From Candidatus Uhrbacteria bacterium RIFOXYB12_FULL_58_10 (GTDB lineage: Bacteria > Patescibacteriota > Patescibacteriia > UBA9934 > GWF2-40-263): a DNA stretch of 64,000 nt. The DNA lies in contig CALRHL010000002.1 in NCBI GenBank assembly GCA_943359455.1, positions 7,665 to 71,664 of the forward strand, given 5' to 3'. Below, piece by piece: positions 12,151 through 60,007 of this stretch; within the stretch, counting starts at the first letter, position 1, and each line of letters opens with the position of its first letter. Made by a program: the position numbers and the translations under genes. Under the pieces are notes generated by a model, which was not told the origin of the DNA, ran no database searches, and saw only the letters and a program-made list of their open reading frames with translations.

Positions 12151-12427
12151 AATCACCAAGCGCCGCTCGCGCAAGAGGGGGTGATAAGAGCCGACAAAGA
12201 GGGTAGACACACAGTTTGAGATCTTGCCAAGTAATACCATCTCTCACTAACCATCCGGCACCATCCCATTCAAAATTGGGCTCCAACTTTGAGAAAAGTC
12301 TTCAACATATCTACGGATATGCTTCAGACTTTTCTCTTCGTTTCGCCTCAATTATGAACGGGCTATGCCGGAGCGTTAGCAAGAGATGGTATAAAAACGT
12401 CCCGACGATTTGTCGAGACGCAGTGAG

Positions 12428-31609: not shown

Positions 31610-31694
31610 CCACCCCCAACCCCTCCTTGAAAAGGAGGGGAGATTATCTCAAAATCTGTTCCCCTCCTTTTCAAGGAGGGGCTAAGGGGTGGTT
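31608..31694. repeat. Nested palindromic element: two 21-nt hairpins inside an outer 9-bp stem
   Basis: AACCACCCC...[CCCCTCCTTGAAAAGGAGGGG]...[CCCCTCCTTTTCAAGGAGGGG]...GGGGTGGTT between the two GT2 genes. Confidence 0.7.
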
Positions 31695-41347: not shown

Positions 41348-42418
41348 ATGTCTACGATTGCGATTGATGAGAGTTCGACGAAAAAGGTAAATCGTTCTGG
41401 GGTTGAATGGTATGCGTACCATCTCATTGAGGCGATTAAGAAACAGTCGCTTGCAGATGGCGAGAAGGTTGTTTTTTATTCTTCGGAGAATTTGAAATGG
41501 TGGTTGCCGTTTGGATGGATGAAGGGGAGAGTGAGTTGGGAAATGTGGCGACGGAAGCCAGATGTTCTTTTCGTGCCTGCGCAAGGACTCCCATTGTGTG
41601 GGAAGCGAGTGGGGGTTGTCCATGACGTGGGATTTCGGCGTGTTGCGTCGGTGTATGAATCAGGTGATAGACGACGACAGGAAAGAGAGATGAAACGCAT
41701 GGTGAAACGTGCGGCGAAGATTTTTTGTGTTTCGGAGTTTACGAAGAGAGAGATGATTGAGCTGTTTAAGGTGAGTCAGGATCGGATCGTCGTTGCTCCG
41801 AATGCGGTGGATACCAATGTGTACCGTCCGATGGACGAATCTGCGATTGCTCCGGTGTTACAGAAATATCGTCTTGGACGGCATTTTTTCTTGTATGTTG
41901 GACGCATGGATGCAAAGAAAAATGTGAAGACCATTATCCGCGCGTTTGAGCTGTTCAAAGCAAGTCGCGGGCTTGGAGATCCGTTTGAACTCGTCCTTGT
42001 TGGCTCACCCGGATTTAAATTTTCTGAAATCAAAACGTATGTTGAACGGTCAAATGCGAAACAAGCGATCAAGTATCTTGGCTATCTTCCTGAAACAGAA
42101 AATGCTGCTCTTATGAATGCAGCGACCGCGTTTCTTTTTCCATCTTGGTACGAAGGGTTTGGTGTTCCTCCCCTTGAAGCCGCCGCATGCGGCGCGCCAC
42201 TCATTATTTCTGACATCGGTGCGCATCGAGAGGTTTTGCAAGACGCGGCGATTTTTGTGAAACCAACTGAACCAGAAGCTTGGGGAAAAATCCTTATGCA
42301 GTTCGCGGCAGATCCTTCAATCGGACAAGCCTTGCGACCGAAAGGATTTGAGCGTGCCGCAGCATATTCCTGGGATGCGACTGCAAAGATTGTTTTGGAA
42401 ACGTTGCGGCGGGTGTAG
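41348..42418 (+). CDS. Glycosyltransferase family 1/4 (GT-B)
   Basis: C-terminal EGFGVPPLEAAACGAPLI motif of GT4 enzymes. Confidence 0.8.
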   Translation: MSTIAIDESSTKKVNRSGVEWYAYHLIEAIKKQSLADGEKVVFYSSENLKWWLPFGWMKGRVSWEMWRRKPDVLFVPAQGLPLCGKRVGVVHDVGFRRVASVYESGDRRRQEREMKRMVKRAAKIFCVSEFTKREMIELFKVSQDRIVVAPNAVDTNVYRPMDESAIAPVLQKYRLGRHFFLYVGRMDAKKNVKTIIRAFELFKASRGLGDPFELVLVGSPGFKFSEIKTYVERSNAKQAIKYLGYLPETENAALMNAATAFLFPSWYEGFGVPPLEAAACGAPLIISDIGAHREVLQDAAIFVKPTEPEAWGKILMQFAADPSIGQALRPKGFERAAAYSWDATAKIVLETLRRV

Positions 42419-42424
42419 ACATGG

Positions 42425-43002
42425 CAGGGGTCCTGGGATGTACAGATCGGATACAGTGGTACAGATATACAGATGTACAGATGTGAAGAGTTGTTTATTG
42501 ACCTGTTCGGATCAGCACATCTGTATATCTGTACTTTTTCTGTACATCCCGTAACAACGAATCCGTATGGAGTTTGTTTATCAAGACCTGAGTTATAAAA
42601 TAAACGGAGTTCTATTTGAAGTTTATAATGAATTGGGTCCTGGATTAAAGGAAAACACTTATCAACGAGCGATTGCAGTTGCCTTATCACACACTGGCCT
42701 CAAGTTTAAGGAACAGGTATACTTTCCATTGAGGTTTAAAAATGAAGTTGTAGGATCACTCTATTTTGATTTCTTGATTGATGAAAAGATCGTTCTCGAA
42801 TTGAAAGTTGGTGAGTATTTTTCACGAAGGAATATAGAGCAAGTTCATCAGTATTTACTCTATTCAGGTTTACATCTCGGACTACTTGCAAACTTCACTC
42901 TTCACGGAGTGAAAATTAAACGCGTCGTCAATTTACAAAATAAATAATCAAATCTGTACATCTGTATATCTTGTACAGATCTGTACATCCCAGGACCCCT
43001 GC
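42425..43002. mobile_element. MITE-like 578-bp element with 24-bp perfect terminal inverted repeats carrying a GxxExxY gene
   Basis: Left TIR GCAGGGGTCCTGGGATGTACAGAT (42425-42448). Right TIR is its reverse complement (42979-43002). Internal GTACAGAT micro-repeats. Confidence 0.7.
42567..42947 (+). CDS. GxxExxY family protein (PD-(D/E)xK-like)
   Basis: GVLFEVYNELGPG matches the GxxExxY signature; 126 aa. Confidence 0.7.
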   Translation: MEFVYQDLSYKINGVLFEVYNELGPGLKENTYQRAIAVALSHTGLKFKEQVYFPLRFKNEVVGSLYFDFLIDEKIVLELKVGEYFSRRNIEQVHQYLLYSGLHLGLLANFTLHGVKIKRVVNLQNK

Positions 43003-43011
43003 TTTATCTGT

Positions 43012-43785
43012 ATGTCGAATCTCATTCAAGAACTCGGACAATTTGGTCTTTCAGAAAAAGAAGCGTCGGTGTATCTTGCCTCGCTTGAACTTGGACCTTC
43101 TCCTGTGCAGGATATTTGTCATAAAGGAAAGGTGAATCGGGCAACCACCTATGTGATGATCGAATCACTCATGAACCGTGGGCTCATGAGTTCGTTTGTG
43201 CGCGGCAAGAAACGATTTTATGTTTCGGAGTCGCCGGAACGGTTGCGCGCTGTGTTGCGAGTTCAGCGAAGAGATCTTGAAAGCAAAGAAGAGCAGTTTG
43301 AAAAAACATTCCCGATGCTCGCGGCACTGTATAACGCCGAAGGAGCAAAGCCGCAGATTCGGTATATGGAAGGGATGGAGGGAGTGAATACGGTGCGAGA
43401 ATTATTTCGAAAGCTCGACGGGGAGATTATTCAGTTTTCTCCGTTTCAACCAGCAACACCTGCTGACGAACTTGCGGAAGGATTAAACGAACATTTAAAA
43501 GAAATGGCAGCCCAAGCAATTCCTTATCGAATCCTGATTTCAATGGATTCACTGCATGTCGATCGCGTTCCAAAATTACCAAACATGGAGATGCGTATTT
43601 TGCCACCAAATCTTTTTCCTACCGAAGCGGAAATTACTGTCCGTGGGACGACAATCTGTATGTATTCTCTCAAGTCAGCCATTTTGGCGATTGTCATTAC
43701 AAGTAAGGAAATGGCTGATGGATTTCGTTCGCTTTTTGAACTCGCGTGGAAAGGGGCAGAAGAATATCCTGTTCGAAAGTCTTAG
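43012..43785 (+). CDS. TrmB family transcriptional regulator
   Basis: N-terminal FGLSEKEASVYLASLELGPSPVQDI wHTH typical of TrmB, plus a C-terminal sensor domain. Confidence 0.7.
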   Translation: MSNLIQELGQFGLSEKEASVYLASLELGPSPVQDICHKGKVNRATTYVMIESLMNRGLMSSFVRGKKRFYVSESPERLRAVLRVQRRDLESKEEQFEKTFPMLAALYNAEGAKPQIRYMEGMEGVNTVRELFRKLDGEIIQFSPFQPATPADELAEGLNEHLKEMAAQAIPYRILISMDSLHVDRVPKLPNMEMRILPPNLFPTEAEITVRGTTICMYSLKSAILAIVITSKEMADGFRSLFELAWKGAEEYPVRKS

Positions 43786-43946
43786 GAGACCTCTGCAAAA
43801 GTCCAGCACGGCTCCAAATCGGCCATCTTCGCACTGGACACATTCACGATTCCTCAATGATATCTGCATATCACCTCGAAATCGTTCATGTGCCCAGTAC
43901 GAATCTGACTCGATTTGGCCTCGTACTGGACTTTTGCAGAGGTCTC
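43786..43946. mobile_element. 161-bp MITE-like element with 25-bp TIRs (1 mismatch)
   Basis: GAGACCTCTGCAAAAGTCCAGCACG ... CGTACTGGACTTTTGCAGAGGTCTC. Nested inner IR CCAAATCGGCC/GGCCAAATCG-like. Solo TIR at 12133-12150. Confidence 0.65.
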
Positions 43947-44048
43947 TTAGAAATAAAAAACGGCTCATGCGTTTTCTTTTCGCTGAGAGCCGTCGAGGAG
44001 AGAGAGGTACGTGCAGAGGCGTACCTTTTTTGGGGAGGAGGATTCGAC

Positions 44049-44483
44049 CTAGAATTGTACGGGAATGAACGTACGCGGATCTCGATGTCGGAGTAGTTCG
44101 AGCAAACCGCTCACGGGTGCGCACCCGGGACCGAGGAAGCCGAGATGCATTCCGATTTCTTGAGACTGATTCTCGCCATGGACATACAGCGCGGTTCCTT
44201 CTTCGTCCCCTGGCTCGGCTACTTCGCGAGCAGGGATTCGAATTTTGGTCCAGTCGAGCGAGCTGTCGGCATCCTTCGATCCAGTCTCGGATCGATTGGT
44301 CGCTTCGCCGTCGTCCATCTCGGACGAGCACATCGACCAGATTGGACTGCCAGCCGTGTCGTCGGCGTCGGCGTCGGCGTCGTCAAGGTCGCGGGAACTG
44401 TCCGTGTCGACCGATCGGGGTGGGGATCCGTCAAGTTGACGGGAACGATTTTCCGGAACAAGTCCGGCCTGTAGAAGAAACAT
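44049..44483 (-). CDS. Hypothetical acidic protein (144 aa), high-GC island
   Basis: GGAG 6 nt upstream of ATG. D/S/E-rich disordered N-half. Confidence 0.45.
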   Translation of the reverse strand: MFLLQAGLVPENRSRQLDGSPPRSVDTDSSRDLDDADADADDTAGSPIWSMCSSEMDDGEATNRSETGSKDADSSLDWTKIRIPAREVAEPGDEEGTALYVHGENQSQEIGMHLGFLGPGCAPVSGLLELLRHRDPRTFIPVQF

Positions 44484-44865
44484 GTTGTACTCCGAGTAAT
44501 CGGAGAACGACCTGCTTCTGTTTGAGGCATCTGCATGCCGTCCTCCTTGTCACTCTCTACAATGTCCTCCCCCAAGATCGACGAAGTTCACCGTAGCGAG
44601 GACGCACTGTATCAAAAAGCCTAGGATTTGTCAAGGTCATTGGAGGTCTAATCCAGCTAGCTCTGACAGATAATTTCTCCAATTTCCCTTTTAATTCCAT
44701 TGATTTATCTAATTCTGTCCCAGATAATCTGGCTCTACTTGACAAATCTTTCCATTTCCATTACTCTTGTCAGTTCCCAAAACCCTCTGGGTATATGACT
44801 GGAGGGTCTTGGGGGCACAAATGAACTATTCAGACAGGGGAGAGACCCAAAGAGAGCTCTGCAAA

Positions 44866-44895
44866 GCAAAAATCCGCCTTATGGCGGATTTTTGT
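44866..44895. terminator. Rho-independent bidirectional terminator (AAAAATCCGCC-TTAT-GGCGGATTTTT)
   Basis: Perfect 9-bp GC-rich stem with flanking A/T tracts; similar to 58297-58322. Confidence 0.7.
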
Positions 44896-45312
44896 TGAGG
44901 GGAGAGACTCAGTGGGTGTAACCACGAGGTTTATCCCACATGTTCGGAGGCAAGGGATGCAGTGACTTCTCTTGCGAGGAGTGTGCACCATGGTTGTCGG
45001 GCGTATGGGGGGAGTCAGACCTAGGTCCGAGTCCACACATTTGGCAACCCCCGATTCAGTGTTTTAAAGCACCGAACCGGTTTGCTCTCTCCTCCGAGCA
45101 TGTGAGAACCTCCTCACTACGAATTTTTTCTGAGATTTTTTCTGCGAATAACGAATCGGCTACACATCTTACAAATAGCTACGTATTACTACGAATGGTT
45201 CGTTGAAATTTGTTGCTATTTGTATGATATGTGGGAGATTTGTAGTTCGCAGGAAAAATTCGTAGTGAGGGGGTGGGGAAGAGCTCGTGTTACGAGATTC
45301 CCCAGAGTCGGT

Positions 45313-55731: not shown

Positions 55732-55854
55732 CACAAACACTGTAAAATTGTGAGGTGTTGGTGCGCAGCGAGCAGCGCAGTAAGGCGTACAAAGATGTAC
55801 GTCGTCGAGCAGCACAGCTGCAAACCAACAGATCGCAATTTTACAGTGTTTGTG
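55732..55854. repeat. Perfect 19-bp inverted repeat (CACAAACACTGTAAAATTG / CAATTTTACAGTGTTTGTG) enclosing ~85 nt, abutting the tRNA-Thr 5' end
   Basis: 19/19 complementarity. Inner GCGCAGCGAGCAGCGCAG-type repeats. Confidence 0.75.
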
Positions 55855-59748: not shown

Positions 59749-59809
59749 AATGGTATCACGACTCTCTCCAAAAGAGTTGTCGCAGGTTCGATCCCTGCAG
59801 CCCCTGCCA
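59736..59809 (+). tRNA. tRNA-Trp (anticodon CCA), CCA encoded
   Basis: Acceptor AGGGGCT/AGCCCCT, D-arm GTGA-AATGGTA-TCAC, anticodon stem ACTCT/AGAGT with loop CTCCAAA, T-arm GCAGG-TTCGATC-CCTGC, discriminator G. Confidence 0.85.
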
Positions 59810-59909
59810 CGTCGCTCGCGAGCGACGTGGCCTGCCACTCGGATTGAGAAGCGGGTCACGTCACTCACGGACGATGTCGATACAAATACGTCGCTCGCGA
59901 GCGACGTGG
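59807..59909. repeat. Two copies of a perfect GC-rich palindrome (CCACGTCGCTCGCGAGCGACGTGG); the first includes the tRNA-Trp CCA end
   Basis: 24-nt perfect palindrome at 59807-59830. 20-22-nt copy at 59888-59909. Flanking GGCCTGCC / GGCAGGCC are mutual reverse complements. Confidence 0.8.
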
Positions 59910-60007
59910 CAGGCCACTCGCTTTGGGTGACAGGCCAGTAGGTCGTGTCAACATGACTCAAAAGAACGCTGAAAGGCGCTCTTTTGTTGTGGTAGAATGA
60001 TTTTGGT

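What the first reader, a model, noticed from the sequence alone, without database searches (positions are those of the whole stretch)
42425..43002. 578-bp MITE-like element with perfect 24-bp TIRs carrying a GxxExxY (PD-(D/E)xK-like) gene
The left TIR GCAGGGGTCCTGGGATGTACAGAT and its exact reverse complement at 42979-43002 flank a single 126-aa GxxExxY ORF and GTACAGAT micro-repeats. It sits precisely in the intergenic gap between a GT4 glycosyltransferase and a TrmB regulator. A TIR-bounded cassette encoding only a small nuclease-fold protein is an unusual mobile unit; there is no transposase.
Basis: seen in the sequence. Interest (0 to 1): 0.6.

Follow-up and report, generated by a model that had tools for sequence, protein, structure and literature searches.

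The report
Nuclease gene inside heptamer-repeat hairpin
A 579-bp insert between two bacterial genes carries a small nuclease gene bracketed by mirror-image runs of a 7-base repeat; the same layout surrounds most relatives sampled across distant microbes and resembles the unexplained "intervening sequences" of ribosomal RNA genes.

Summary
TACAGAT heptamers are confined to this insert.

It is not a one-off. Of 83 homologous genes from CPR bacteria, Bacteroidota and DPANN archaea, 59 have forward heptamer arrays (TAC-N-R-A-W, typically four units) just upstream. 56 have the inverted array just downstream; the opposite orientation occurs 4 and 0 times.

- The heptamers are conserved; the spacers between them are not.
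- Gene-less array hairpins lie in neighbouring spacers, including one in this window (45108-45274).
- Relatives of this genome have only 9-10 nt between the same two genes. There is no target-site duplication.
- At shared sites the gene diverges in step with its neighbours.
- Four-helix-bundle "23S IVS protein" genes have the same layout.
- The Coxiella 23S IVS has a 28-bp stem plus GACAGAT heptamers.

Best reading: an IVS-type, REPIN/RAYT-like "gene-in-hairpin" cassette. The heptamers are probably recognition sites for its own dimeric nuclease. The mechanism is inferred, not shown.

The parts
42424..43002 (+). Whole cassette (579 bp) inserted between the GT4 stop codon and the TrmB start codon
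   Evidence: Bounded by the perfect 24-nt inverted repeat. Removing it leaves a 14-nt spacer, against 9-10 nt in relatives L086-L088. GC is 37.5% against 47.1% for the window.
42424..42447 (+). Left terminal inverted repeat, GCAGGGGTCCTGGGATG plus the first TACAGAT unit
   Evidence: exact match, none expected by chance.
42441..42482 (+). Forward heptamer array. TACAGAT units start at 42441, 42460, 42468 and 42476; a degenerate unit TACAGTG starts at 42452. Spacing is 11, 8, 8, 8.
42516..42550 (+). Internal reverse array (ATCTGTA x2, TTCTGTA, then CATCCC). It pairs with the forward array to form a local hairpin upstream of the ORF.
   Evidence: (I2, I4, I7), and the RNA fold. L027 has the same forward-reverse-gene-reverse layout.
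42567..42947 (+). GxxExxY protein gene, 126 aa: a minimal RecB/Cas4-like PD-(D/E)XK nuclease
   Evidence: TIGR04256 E 3.3e-30 and PF13366 E 5.8e-30. Invariant residues are G14, E29, Y32, D68, E78, K80, Q92, Y96 and R119. AF2 model has pLDDT 95. Best Foldseek hits are Cas4 SSO0001, lambda exonuclease and Hjc.
42952..42989 (+). Downstream reverse heptamer array. ATCTGTA units start at 42952, 42960 and 42979. It includes a local TACAGATCTGTA palindrome.
42979..43002 (-). Right terminal inverted repeat
42419..42423 (.). Left junction (ACATG) after the GT4 stop codon. It is not repeated on the other side.
   Evidence: The right junction is TTTATCTGT (43003-43011), so there is no target-site duplication.
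43003..43011 (.). Right junction (TTTATCTGT) before the TrmB ATG
45108..45274 (.). Related gene-less hairpin built of TACGAAT / TACAAAT-type units
   Evidence: I1, I11. RNA MFE is -82.7 kcal/mol, z = -10.8.

Best explanation
**What it is.** The element is a 'gene-in-hairpin' cassette of the kind so far described only as ORF-bearing intervening sequences (IVS) of 23S rRNA. Here it lies in an mRNA spacer and carries a nuclease gene.

**Shown.**
- It fills the short spacer between two co-oriented genes, in the sense orientation.
- No sigma-70-type promoter or intrinsic-terminator pattern was found in it.
- Its ends are inverted arrays of TACAGAT heptamers capped by a perfect 24-nt inverted repeat.
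- Its ORF is an intact minimal RecB/Cas4-like PD-(D/E)XK nuclease.
- The same layout surrounds most homologues. Gene-less array hairpins sit in nearby spacers.

**Inferred mechanism.**
- The cassette is transcribed by read-through from the host operon.
- The two arms can pair in the transcript or in single-stranded DNA, enclosing the ORF in the loop of a long stem. In rRNA IVSs such a stem is cut by RNase III.
- The heptamers, not the stem as such, are the selected units. They are most simply the recognition sites of the cassette's own, probably dimeric, nuclease.
- The nuclease maintains or propagates the arrays, much as a RAYT transposase does for REPINs. Gene-less hairpins would be the non-autonomous partners or the target sites.
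- Such cassettes persist vertically for long periods. They occasionally colonise a new spacer, as apparently happened here.
For: **Anatomy.**
- Perfect 24-nt inverted repeat, none expected by chance.
- Heptamers are confined to the element.
- Intact catalytic D68 / E78-x-K80 and a Q92-xxx-Y96 motif.
- AF2 pLDDT 95. Best fold matches are Cas4, lambda exonuclease and Hjc.

**Insertion.** Relatives whose TrmB is 70-75% identical have a 9-10-nt GT4-TrmB gap.

**Trait shared by most homologues sampled.**
- Of 83 homologous genes, 59 have at least 3 forward units upstream and 56 have at least 3 reverse units downstream. 47 have both; the wrong orientation occurs 4 and 0 times.
- Arrays end a median of 30 nt before the ATG and begin a median of 5 nt after the stop codon.
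- Inverted-repeat scores lie far above a cross-locus control.
- Members only 35-39% identical also have inverted arrays, with other units (CGCAGAC, CACAGAGG).
- The nearest relatives (68% and 61% identical) use TACAGAT, like the window.

**Units, not a continuous stem, are conserved.**
- Spacers are complementary at 26%, the random level. Variable heptamer positions agree at 0.83-0.91 within an element against 0.64 between elements.

**Orientation.** 58 of 70 cassettes are sense to both neighbours; 2 of 70 are antisense to both. No promoter or terminator pattern was found.

**Gene-less hairpins.**
- They show the same 4+4 layout and usually the same unit type within 0.5-3 kb of a cassette.
- One lies between rpsL and rpsG. 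One lies in the window.

**Vertical persistence.**
- At shared sites GxxExxY identity tracks flank identity.
- The family is rare on plasmids and phages and absent from viral contigs.

**Dimer.** Natural two-domain fusions exist.

**Link to IVS.**
- Four-helix-bundle IVS-protein genes have the same inverted tandem 7-8-nt arrays. This was seen in 2 loci by chance and then in 54 metagenome loci against a control.
- The Coxiella IVS has a 28-bp terminal stem cut by RNase III and 3-4 GACAGAT heptamers before its ORF (PMC4990558).
Against: - No second copy of this element or of its 24-mer was found in the 64-kb window or in JGI metagenomes. Recent mobility is therefore not shown.
- There is no target-site duplication.
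- The direction of the difference from relatives (gain here or loss there) rests on parsimony alone.
- The low GC of the ORF is not evidence of recent transfer. All 60 homologues tested are about 11 points below their flanks.
- Binding of the protein to the heptamers is untested. An unrelated protein family (four-helix bundle) sits in similar arrays, and the Coxiella unit resembles the one here. A common host factor could therefore read the arrays instead.
- The G-U versus A-C mismatch test for RNA pairing had too few events to decide.
- About a quarter of homologues lack strict arrays on one or both sides.
- Array detection used a pattern derived from the data.
- Taxon labels come from MAG record titles.
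Confidence: 0.5

Rival explanations
1. Host RNA-processing or stability module. The heptamer hairpins are useful operon-spacer structures that are cut or bound at the RNA level, by RNase III or by the GxxExxY protein acting as an RNase. The gene embedded in one of them is a domesticated, autoregulated host gene and not a mobile element.
For: - Vertical co-divergence with neighbours, with conservation equal to or above that of the flanks.
- Strict sense orientation within operons.
- Gene-less hairpins inside core operons such as rpsL-rpsG.
- Rarity on plasmids and phages.
- Fold similarity also to tRNA-splicing endonucleases and Rai1/Dxo1.
- IVS stems are RNase III substrates.
- Xanthomonas heptamer arrays are transcribed and positionally stable.
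Against: - The window's cassette is absent from the closest relatives, and a different hairpin occupies the same spacer in L084/L085. Its presence is therefore dispensable and variable.
- The D...ExK...QxxxY motif set is typical of metal-dependent DNases of the RecB/Cas4 group (established knowledge).
- Spacers between units are not complementary.
- The family occurs in CPR bacteria, Bacteroidota and DPANN archaea with the arrays attached. That pattern suggests transfer as a unit.
Confidence: 0.2
2. Free-standing homing endonuclease gene. The nuclease cuts gene-less alleles (empty spacers or gene-less hairpins), and the gene is copied in by recombinational repair. The arrays are the homing target or homology arms, not binding sites used for transposition.
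For: - Presence/absence polymorphism at a conserved gene junction, without target-site duplication.
- Tight intergenic placement between conserved genes, in the sense orientation.
- PD-(D/E)XK homing endonucleases exist. I-Bth0305I appears among the weak fold hits.
- Gene-less hairpins with matching units lie nearby and could serve as targets.
Against: - Long vertical co-divergence argues against frequent homing.
- The empty sites in relatives contain no heptamer hairpin to serve as a target.
- Four-helix-bundle proteins are not nucleases, yet they sit in the same kind of cassette.
Confidence: 0.12
3. Conventional TIR transposon or MITE moved in trans by an unidentified transposase, with the GxxExxY gene as passenger cargo.
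For: Perfect 24-nt terminal inverted repeats. Sub-terminal repeated units resemble the multiple transposase-binding sites at the ends of Tn7 or Mu (own knowledge).
Against: - No target-site duplication.
- No other copy found.
- Arrays and gene travel together across phyla, with unit type following the protein lineage.
- No transposase lies nearby in the loci examined, apart from one unrelated RAYT-like gene in L044.
Confidence: 0.05
4. Ordinary small gene with coincidental hairpins or terminators. The repeats would be slippage-generated simple sequence with no link to the gene.
For: Heptamer tandem repeats are over-represented in bacteria generally. This has been ascribed to polymerase slippage (PMC4692102).
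Against: - Fixed orientation: 59 and 56 cases against 4 and 0.
- Mirror symmetry well above the control.
- Conserved unit sequence across phyla.
- No T-tract terminators.
Confidence: 0.03

Closest known systems
ORF-bearing intervening sequences (IVS) of 23S rRNA (Coxiella burnetii, Leptospira; PMC4990558)
   Same: Similar size (428-444 nt against 579 bp). Terminal inverted repeats form a 24-28-bp stem that encloses one small ORF. Tandem heptamers lie directly upstream of the ORF: GACAGAT in Coxiella, TACAGAT here, 6 of 7 identical. No transposase. Long suspected to be a selfish or mobile element.
   Different: This element lies between protein-coding genes, not in an rRNA helix. Its ORF is a PD-(D/E)XK nuclease, not the four-helix-bundle S23p. 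RNase III cleavage is not tested here. The heptamers are also mirrored downstream of the ORF.
REPIN / RAYT systems (REP-associated tyrosine transposases; PMC5581495, PMC8266576)
   Same: A gene flanked by inverted copies of a short repeat. The same repeat also occurs as gene-less hairpin doublets in other intergenic regions. Vertical inheritance, rarity on plasmids, and intergenic location.
   Different: The protein is a PD-(D/E)XK nuclease, not an HUH/Y1 transposase. The repeats are arrays of 7-nt units, not a single REP palindrome. Several cassettes can occur per genome: L024 has three within 2.3 kb.
Heptamer tandem-repeat arrays of Xanthomonas (GGGAATC) and Nostoc (GGGGAYT) (Rehm et al. 2015, PMC4692102)
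   Same: Intergenic arrays of mostly four 7-nt units. They often occur as convergent (inverted) pairs, are positionally conserved between species, are transcribed, and have unknown function. The reverse complement GATTCCC is close to the GATTCCA units flanking a four-helix-bundle gene (L164).
   Different: That study does not mention nuclease or IVS-protein genes (word search). The unit sequence differs from TACAGAT. I could not examine those genomes.
MITEs / Correia elements
   Same: Small, bounded by terminal inverted repeats, intergenic, forming hairpins in transcripts.
   Different: This element is coding, has no target-site duplication, and shows no evidence of many identical copies.
Cas4 / RecB / lambda-exonuclease nuclease domain
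   Same: PD-(D/E)XK core with D, ExK and QxxxY motifs. These are the best structural matches.
   Different: Only 126 aa, with no Fe-S cluster or accessory domains. Sequence identity is 11-15%. No CRISPR or recombination genes lie nearby.

Membership tests
GxxExxY protein family (TIGR04256 / PF13366 PDDEXK_3) | Profile match above the curated cut-off | tested here: met
   104.8 bits against a cut-off of 35; PF13366 104.5 bits against 22.
GxxExxY protein family (TIGR04256 / PF13366 PDDEXK_3) | GxxExxY motif and PD-(D/E)XK catalytic residues present | tested here: met
   G26-x-x-E29-x-x-Y32, D68 and E78-L-K80. All except G26 (nearly invariant) are invariant in the 27-sequence alignment. The fold was confirmed by AF2 with pLDDT 95.
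23S rRNA intervening sequence (IVS) | Located in a 23S (or 16S) rRNA helix, replacing a loop | tested here: not met
   It lies between the GT4 and TrmB genes. The window has no rRNA.
23S rRNA intervening sequence (IVS) | Complementary termini forming a long stem that encloses the element | tested here: met
   24-nt perfect inverted repeat, extending to 58 nt at 79%. In the predicted RNA fold the ends pair; z = -7.4.
23S rRNA intervening sequence (IVS) | Excision by RNase III without re-ligation | not testable with these tools
   Needs transcript end mapping.
23S rRNA intervening sequence (IVS) | ORF, when present, belongs to the S23p / four-helix-bundle family | tested here: not met
   The ORF is GxxExxY. 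Four-helix-bundle genes do sit in analogous cassettes in other loci.
REPIN/RAYT system | Encoded protein is an HUH/Y1 (IS200-like) transposase | tested here: not met
   Pfam and NCBIfam return only PDDEXK_3 / GxxExxY.
REPIN/RAYT system | Gene flanked by inverted copies of a repeat that also forms dispersed gene-less hairpin doublets | tested here: inconclusive
   Flanking inverted arrays: yes. Gene-less doublets of the same unit type lie near cassettes in L013, L054, L069, L029 and L060. However, the window's own gene-less hairpin uses TACGAAT/TACAAAT units, not TACAGAT. No whole-genome census was possible.
MITE / TIR transposon | Target-site duplication flanking the TIRs | tested here: not met
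   The flanks are ACATG on one side and TTTATCTGT on the other.
MITE / TIR transposon | Multiple near-identical copies | tested here: not met
   No other copy of the 24-mer was found in the window, allowing up to 3 mismatches, or in JGI metagenome contigs. The rest of the source genome was not available.
MITE / TIR transposon | Non-coding (for a MITE) or encoding a transposase (for an autonomous element) | tested here: not met
   It encodes one nuclease-fold protein and no transposase.
Free-standing homing endonuclease gene | Presence/absence polymorphism at a conserved site, without target-site duplication | tested here: met
   Empty GT4-TrmB junctions in L086-L088. These relatives are distant (70-75% amino-acid identity).
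Free-standing homing endonuclease gene | Site-specific cleavage of the gene-less allele | not testable with these tools
   Needs biochemistry.
Known anti-phage defence systems (PADLOC) | Match to a defence-protein model | tested here: not met
   No PADLOC family at E <= 0.1.

The most novel reading that the evidence does not exclude
GxxExxY nucleases and the four-helix-bundle 'IVS proteins' may be the long-missing protein partners of bacterial and archaeal heptamer-repeat hairpins. Those hairpins include the cyanobacterial and Xanthomonas heptamer arrays and the rRNA intervening sequences. Together they would form a previously unrecognised, very widespread class of persistent genetic elements, analogous to REPIN/RAYT but built on a PD-(D/E)XK nuclease. 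Each protein would recognise its own 7-nt unit and maintain or spread arrays of it. The rRNA IVSs would be the special case in which such an element lodged in an rRNA helix.
Probability: 0.3. Interest if true: 0.85.

Novelty: new variant of a known kind. Interest (0 to 1): 0.68.

Why it matters
Three puzzles have stayed separate and unexplained for decades:
- the origin of ORF-bearing intervening sequences in rRNA genes;
- the abundant intergenic heptamer tandem repeats, often in inverted pairs, of Xanthomonas and cyanobacteria;
- the function of two very large families of small 'hypothetical' proteins, GxxExxY and the four-helix-bundle IVS protein.

The data here place all three in one architecture: a small gene nested between inverted arrays of 7-8-nt units, in the sense orientation inside operons, with gene-less hairpin derivatives.

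If the encoded nuclease reads its own heptamers, this would be a new kind of persistent element, or a domesticated nuclease-repeat system. It would be present in CPR bacteria, Bacteroidota and DPANN archaea. It would also be directly testable with one small protein and short oligonucleotides.

Tried and rejected
- **Other copies of the 24-mer.** None in the window at up to 3 mismatches and none in JGI metagenome contigs. Multi-copy mobility could not be shown.
- **Target-site duplication.** None.
- **Low GC as evidence of recent transfer.** Rejected. All 60 homologues tested are AT-richer than their flanks.
- **Known RNA families.** Rfam at gathering thresholds gives only tRNAs. The permissive search gives only sub-threshold microRNA-hairpin look-alikes.
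- **Defence system.** No PADLOC hit.
- **Phage or plasmid carriage.** Only weak hits in one haloarchaeal virus (deposited as two records) and five plasmid records, and none in viral contigs.
- **Own promoter or terminator.** No consensus sites. The scan is weak evidence for a CPR organism.
- **RNA strand test (G-U versus A-C mismatches).** Only three informative events, so uninformative.
- **Literature.** Searches for GxxExxY, PDDEXK_3, TIGR04256 and the repeat strings found no description of the flanking arrays.
- **First locus search.** The search with the 27-sequence alignment failed for lack of a conserved block. It was repeated with 10 closer sequences.

Full report
**1. The observation**

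The 24-mer GCAGGGGTCCTGGGATGTACAGAT occurs exactly twice in the window, at 42424-42447 (+) and 42979-43002 (-). No shuffle gave any match. With mismatches the inverted repeat runs to 58 nt at 79%.

GTACAGAT occurs 8 times against 1.0 expected, and 7 of those lie inside the unit. Read directly, the unit has this order:
- the unique end GCAGGGGTCCTGGGATG;
- five forward TACAGAT-type units (42441-42482; spacing 11, 8, 8, 8);
- a 33-nt loop;
- three reverse units ending CATCCC (42516-42550);
- 16 nt;
- the ORF (42567-42947);
- 4 nt;
- reverse units (42952-42989);
- the unique end, inverted.

The ORF is a GxxExxY / PDDEXK_3 protein. The neighbours are a GT4 glycosyltransferase and a TrmB-type regulator, both on the same strand.

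**2. The protein**

A 27-sequence alignment shows invariant G14, E29, Y32, D68, E78, K80, Q92, Y96, F110 and R119. These form a D...ExK core followed by QxxxY. From established knowledge, that motif set belongs to RecB/Cas4/lambda-exonuclease-type nucleases.

AlphaFold gives a confident model (pLDDT 95, pTM 0.88). Foldseek's best PDB matches are all weak (E about 1e-4 to 1e-2):
- Cas4 SSO0001;
- lambda exonuclease;
- the Hjc-type resolvase ST1444 (rmsd 3.0-3.3 A);
- MGME1;
- tRNA-splicing endonucleases.

No solved structure is detectable by sequence. The family is very large: 25,787 clusters at 50% identity with E <= 1e-3. Many members are natural two-domain fusions of about 265 aa, and some have one degenerate active site. 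That points to a dimer. There is no PADLOC hit. The only papers found call the family 'unknown'.

**3. It is an insert**

The same sequence is seen in three independent assemblies. The closest available relatives have TrmB 70-75% identical. They keep GT4 and TrmB adjacent with only 9-10 nt between the stop and start codons (L086, L087, L088). Deleting 42424-43002 from the window leaves 14 nt.

The flanks (ACATG and TTTATCTGT) share no duplication. A fourth relative (L084/L085) carries a different, gene-less 126-nt repeat hairpin in the same spacer. This spacer therefore exists in three states: empty, hairpin only, and hairpin with gene.

The element is AT-rich (37.5% against 47.1% GC; ORF GC3 31% against 42-47% for the neighbours). 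I do not count this as evidence of recent transfer. All 60 homologues tested are AT-richer than their flanks, by 11 points on average.

**4. The flanking repeats are a shared trait of the sampled homologues**

I fetched 80 loci encoding relatives (48-58% identity). Their record titles name CPR/Patescibacteria, Bacteroidota, some MAGs labelled Proteobacteria, and DPANN archaea. The best inverted repeat across each gene scored far above a cross-locus control. The arms are arrays of 7-nt units, TAC-N-R-A-W: TACGAAT, TACGAAA, TACAAAT, TACTAAT, TACAGAT.

Counts over 83 gene instances:

| Feature | Count |
|---|---|
| At least 3 forward units within 300 nt upstream | 59 |
| At least 3 reverse units within 250 nt downstream | 56 |
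| Both | 47 |
| Opposite orientation upstream | 4 |
| Opposite orientation downstream | 0 |

The forward array ends a median of 30 nt before the start codon. The reverse array begins a median of 5 nt after the stop codon. The common form is four units spaced 8, 11, 8.

The nearest relatives of the window protein also use TACAGAT (L089 at 68%, L091 at 61%, and L027). Members only 35-39% identical, from GC-richer genomes, have the same layout with other units (CGCAGAC, CACAGAGG).

**5. What is conserved**

In 14 canonical 4+4 elements the spacers between units are complementary at 26%, the random level. At the variable heptamer positions:

| Comparison | Identity |
|---|---|
| Mirror-partner units | 0.91 |
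| Other cross-arm pairs | 0.85 |
| Within one arm | 0.83 |
| Between elements | 0.64 |

The 7-nt units are under selection. Continuous base pairing is not. Within the sampled subfamily the unit keeps one consensus across phyla. I read this as sequence-specific recognition of each unit. This is an inference, and the sample is small. The pattern used to find the units also fixes four of the seven positions.

**6. Setting and persistence**

Of 70 cassettes with both neighbours callable, 58 are sense to both and 2 are antisense to both. No sigma-70-type promoter or intrinsic terminator pattern lies in 42300-43100 (weak evidence for this kind of organism). Expression by read-through is therefore likely.

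Sets of loci share the same neighbours, for example seven Bacteroidia MAGs and three CPR lineages at a site after an upstream gene I took by eye to be lemA-like. In these sets GxxExxY identity tracks, and often exceeds, the identity of the flanking genes: 67-96% against 62-94%. The cassettes persist vertically under purifying selection. The family is almost absent from phage and plasmid records and from viral contigs.

**7. Gene-less partners**

Back-to-back forward+reverse arrays without a gene lie in nearby spacers of the same loci. They have the same 4+4 layout and usually the same unit type (L013, L029, L054, L060, L069). One sits between rpsL and rpsG (L083).

The window has one at 45108-45274 (RNA MFE -82.7 kcal/mol, z -10.8). 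It uses TACGAAT/TACAAAT units, not TACAGAT.

**8. Link to rRNA intervening sequences and heptamer repeats**

An unbiased search of the fetched loci for other small ORFs enclosed by inverted repeats found two four-helix-bundle genes (TIGR02436, the '23S IVS protein' family). Both are bracketed by inverted arrays of other 7-8-nt units.

A dedicated set of 54 metagenome loci for that family showed the same. Scores were well above the control, with units such as AGTTTCA, AGTTCCG, ATTCAAG, AAGATTT and GATTCCA.

The experimentally studied Coxiella 23S IVS is 428-444 nt. It has a 28-bp terminal stem cut by RNase III and 3-4 tandem GACAGAT heptamers just upstream of its four-helix-bundle ORF (PMC4990558). 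That unit matches the window's TACAGAT at 6 of 7 positions.

Rehm et al. (PMC4692102) described GGGAATC arrays in Xanthomonas:
- mostly four units;
- 70-75 convergent pairs per genome;
- positionally conserved between species;
- transcribed;
- function unknown.

My word search of that paper found no mention of a nuclease, S23 or intervening-sequence gene. I found no paper that connects such arrays to GxxExxY genes.

**9. Interpretation**

*Firmly supported.* The window element is one member of a very widespread gene-in-hairpin cassette type. It shares its architecture with ORF-bearing rRNA IVSs and with heptamer-array hairpins.

*Inferred.*
- Read-through transcription.
- Folding of the arms around the ORF. 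In IVSs this fold is an RNase III substrate.
- Recognition of the heptamers by the cassette's own dimeric nuclease.
- A REPIN/RAYT-like relationship between gene-bearing and gene-less hairpins, with rare colonisation of new spacers.

*Against over-reading.* No second copy was found. There is no target-site duplication and no biochemical data. An unrelated protein family sits in similar arrays, so a shared host factor remains possible.

*Rivals, in order of weight.* A domesticated RNA-processing module; a free-standing homing endonuclease gene; a conventional TIR transposon with cargo; coincidence.

**10. Verdict**

- The 'MITE-like mobile unit' reading is partly supported.
- The element fails the defining tests for MITE, RAYT and rRNA IVS membership. 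It works most like an IVS or REPIN-type element.
- I file it as a new variant of a known kind.
- There is a credible (about 0.3) reading that it exposes an unrecognised class linking IVSs, heptamer repeats and two large orphan protein families.

Noticed in passing
window 45108-45274: A gene-less palindrome of about 165 nt built from TACGAAT/TACAAAT-type heptamers (RNA MFE -82.7 kcal/mol, z -10.8). It is the same kind of array hairpin that flanks GxxExxY genes elsewhere, but its unit type differs from the TACAGAT cassette 2 kb upstream.
   Followed up: partly
window 43783-43949: A 39-nt-arm hairpin (87% complementary) starts at the TrmB stop codon. The contig from another sample (L001) is 99.95% identical to the window up to 43947 and then diverges completely. 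L002 and L003 end within or close to it. It may be a repeat or a recombination or assembly breakpoint.
   Followed up: partly
window 43790-45300: About 1.5 kb between two hairpins has no ORF with a Pfam match and no Rfam match. GC rises to 62% around 44200-44400. Its content is unexplained.
   Followed up: partly
window 12234-12392; 31613-31688; 55732-55854; 59803-59913: Several other long intergenic hairpins of unrelated sequence. One abuts tRNA-Thr (55854). One, with perfect 26-nt arms, starts within the 3' end of tRNA-Trp. This genome seems rich in long spacer hairpins.
   Followed up: no
L084:3375-3500 and L085:1961-2086: In a relative, the GT4-TrmB spacer holds a gene-less 126-nt hairpin of two forward and two inverted copies of a unit of about 17 nt (GGCCAYATGAGCCAGAGG). 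The same spacer is thus empty, hairpin-only or gene-bearing in different lineages.
   Followed up: partly
L004-L083 (60 loci with enough flank): Every GxxExxY ORF is AT-richer than its flanks (mean -11 GC points). This holds even at sites inherited vertically for a long time, so amelioration to host GC does not happen. The reason is unknown.
   Followed up: partly
P0182, P0184, P0186: Natural tandem two-domain GxxExxY proteins (about 265 aa) are common among the top family representatives. In some, one half has lost the ExK lysine. This suggests an obligate, or pseudo-, dimer.
   Followed up: partly
L024:2460-4735; L012 and L083 (same contig, 4.6 kb apart): Several GxxExxY cassettes can occupy consecutive spacers of one gene cluster. 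L024 has three within 2.3 kb, and the first two have distinct heptamer variants.
   Followed up: no
L044:212-973 (-): A RAYT-like (REP-associated tyrosine transposase) gene lies 1.4 kb from a GxxExxY cassette in an unclassified MAG.
   Followed up: no
L089:425-470 and L091:1460-1503: Gene callers start some GxxExxY ORFs inside the upstream heptamer array. The unit TACAGATG supplies an ATG, giving spurious N-terminal extensions such as MYRLNTDIQIAM.
   Followed up: no
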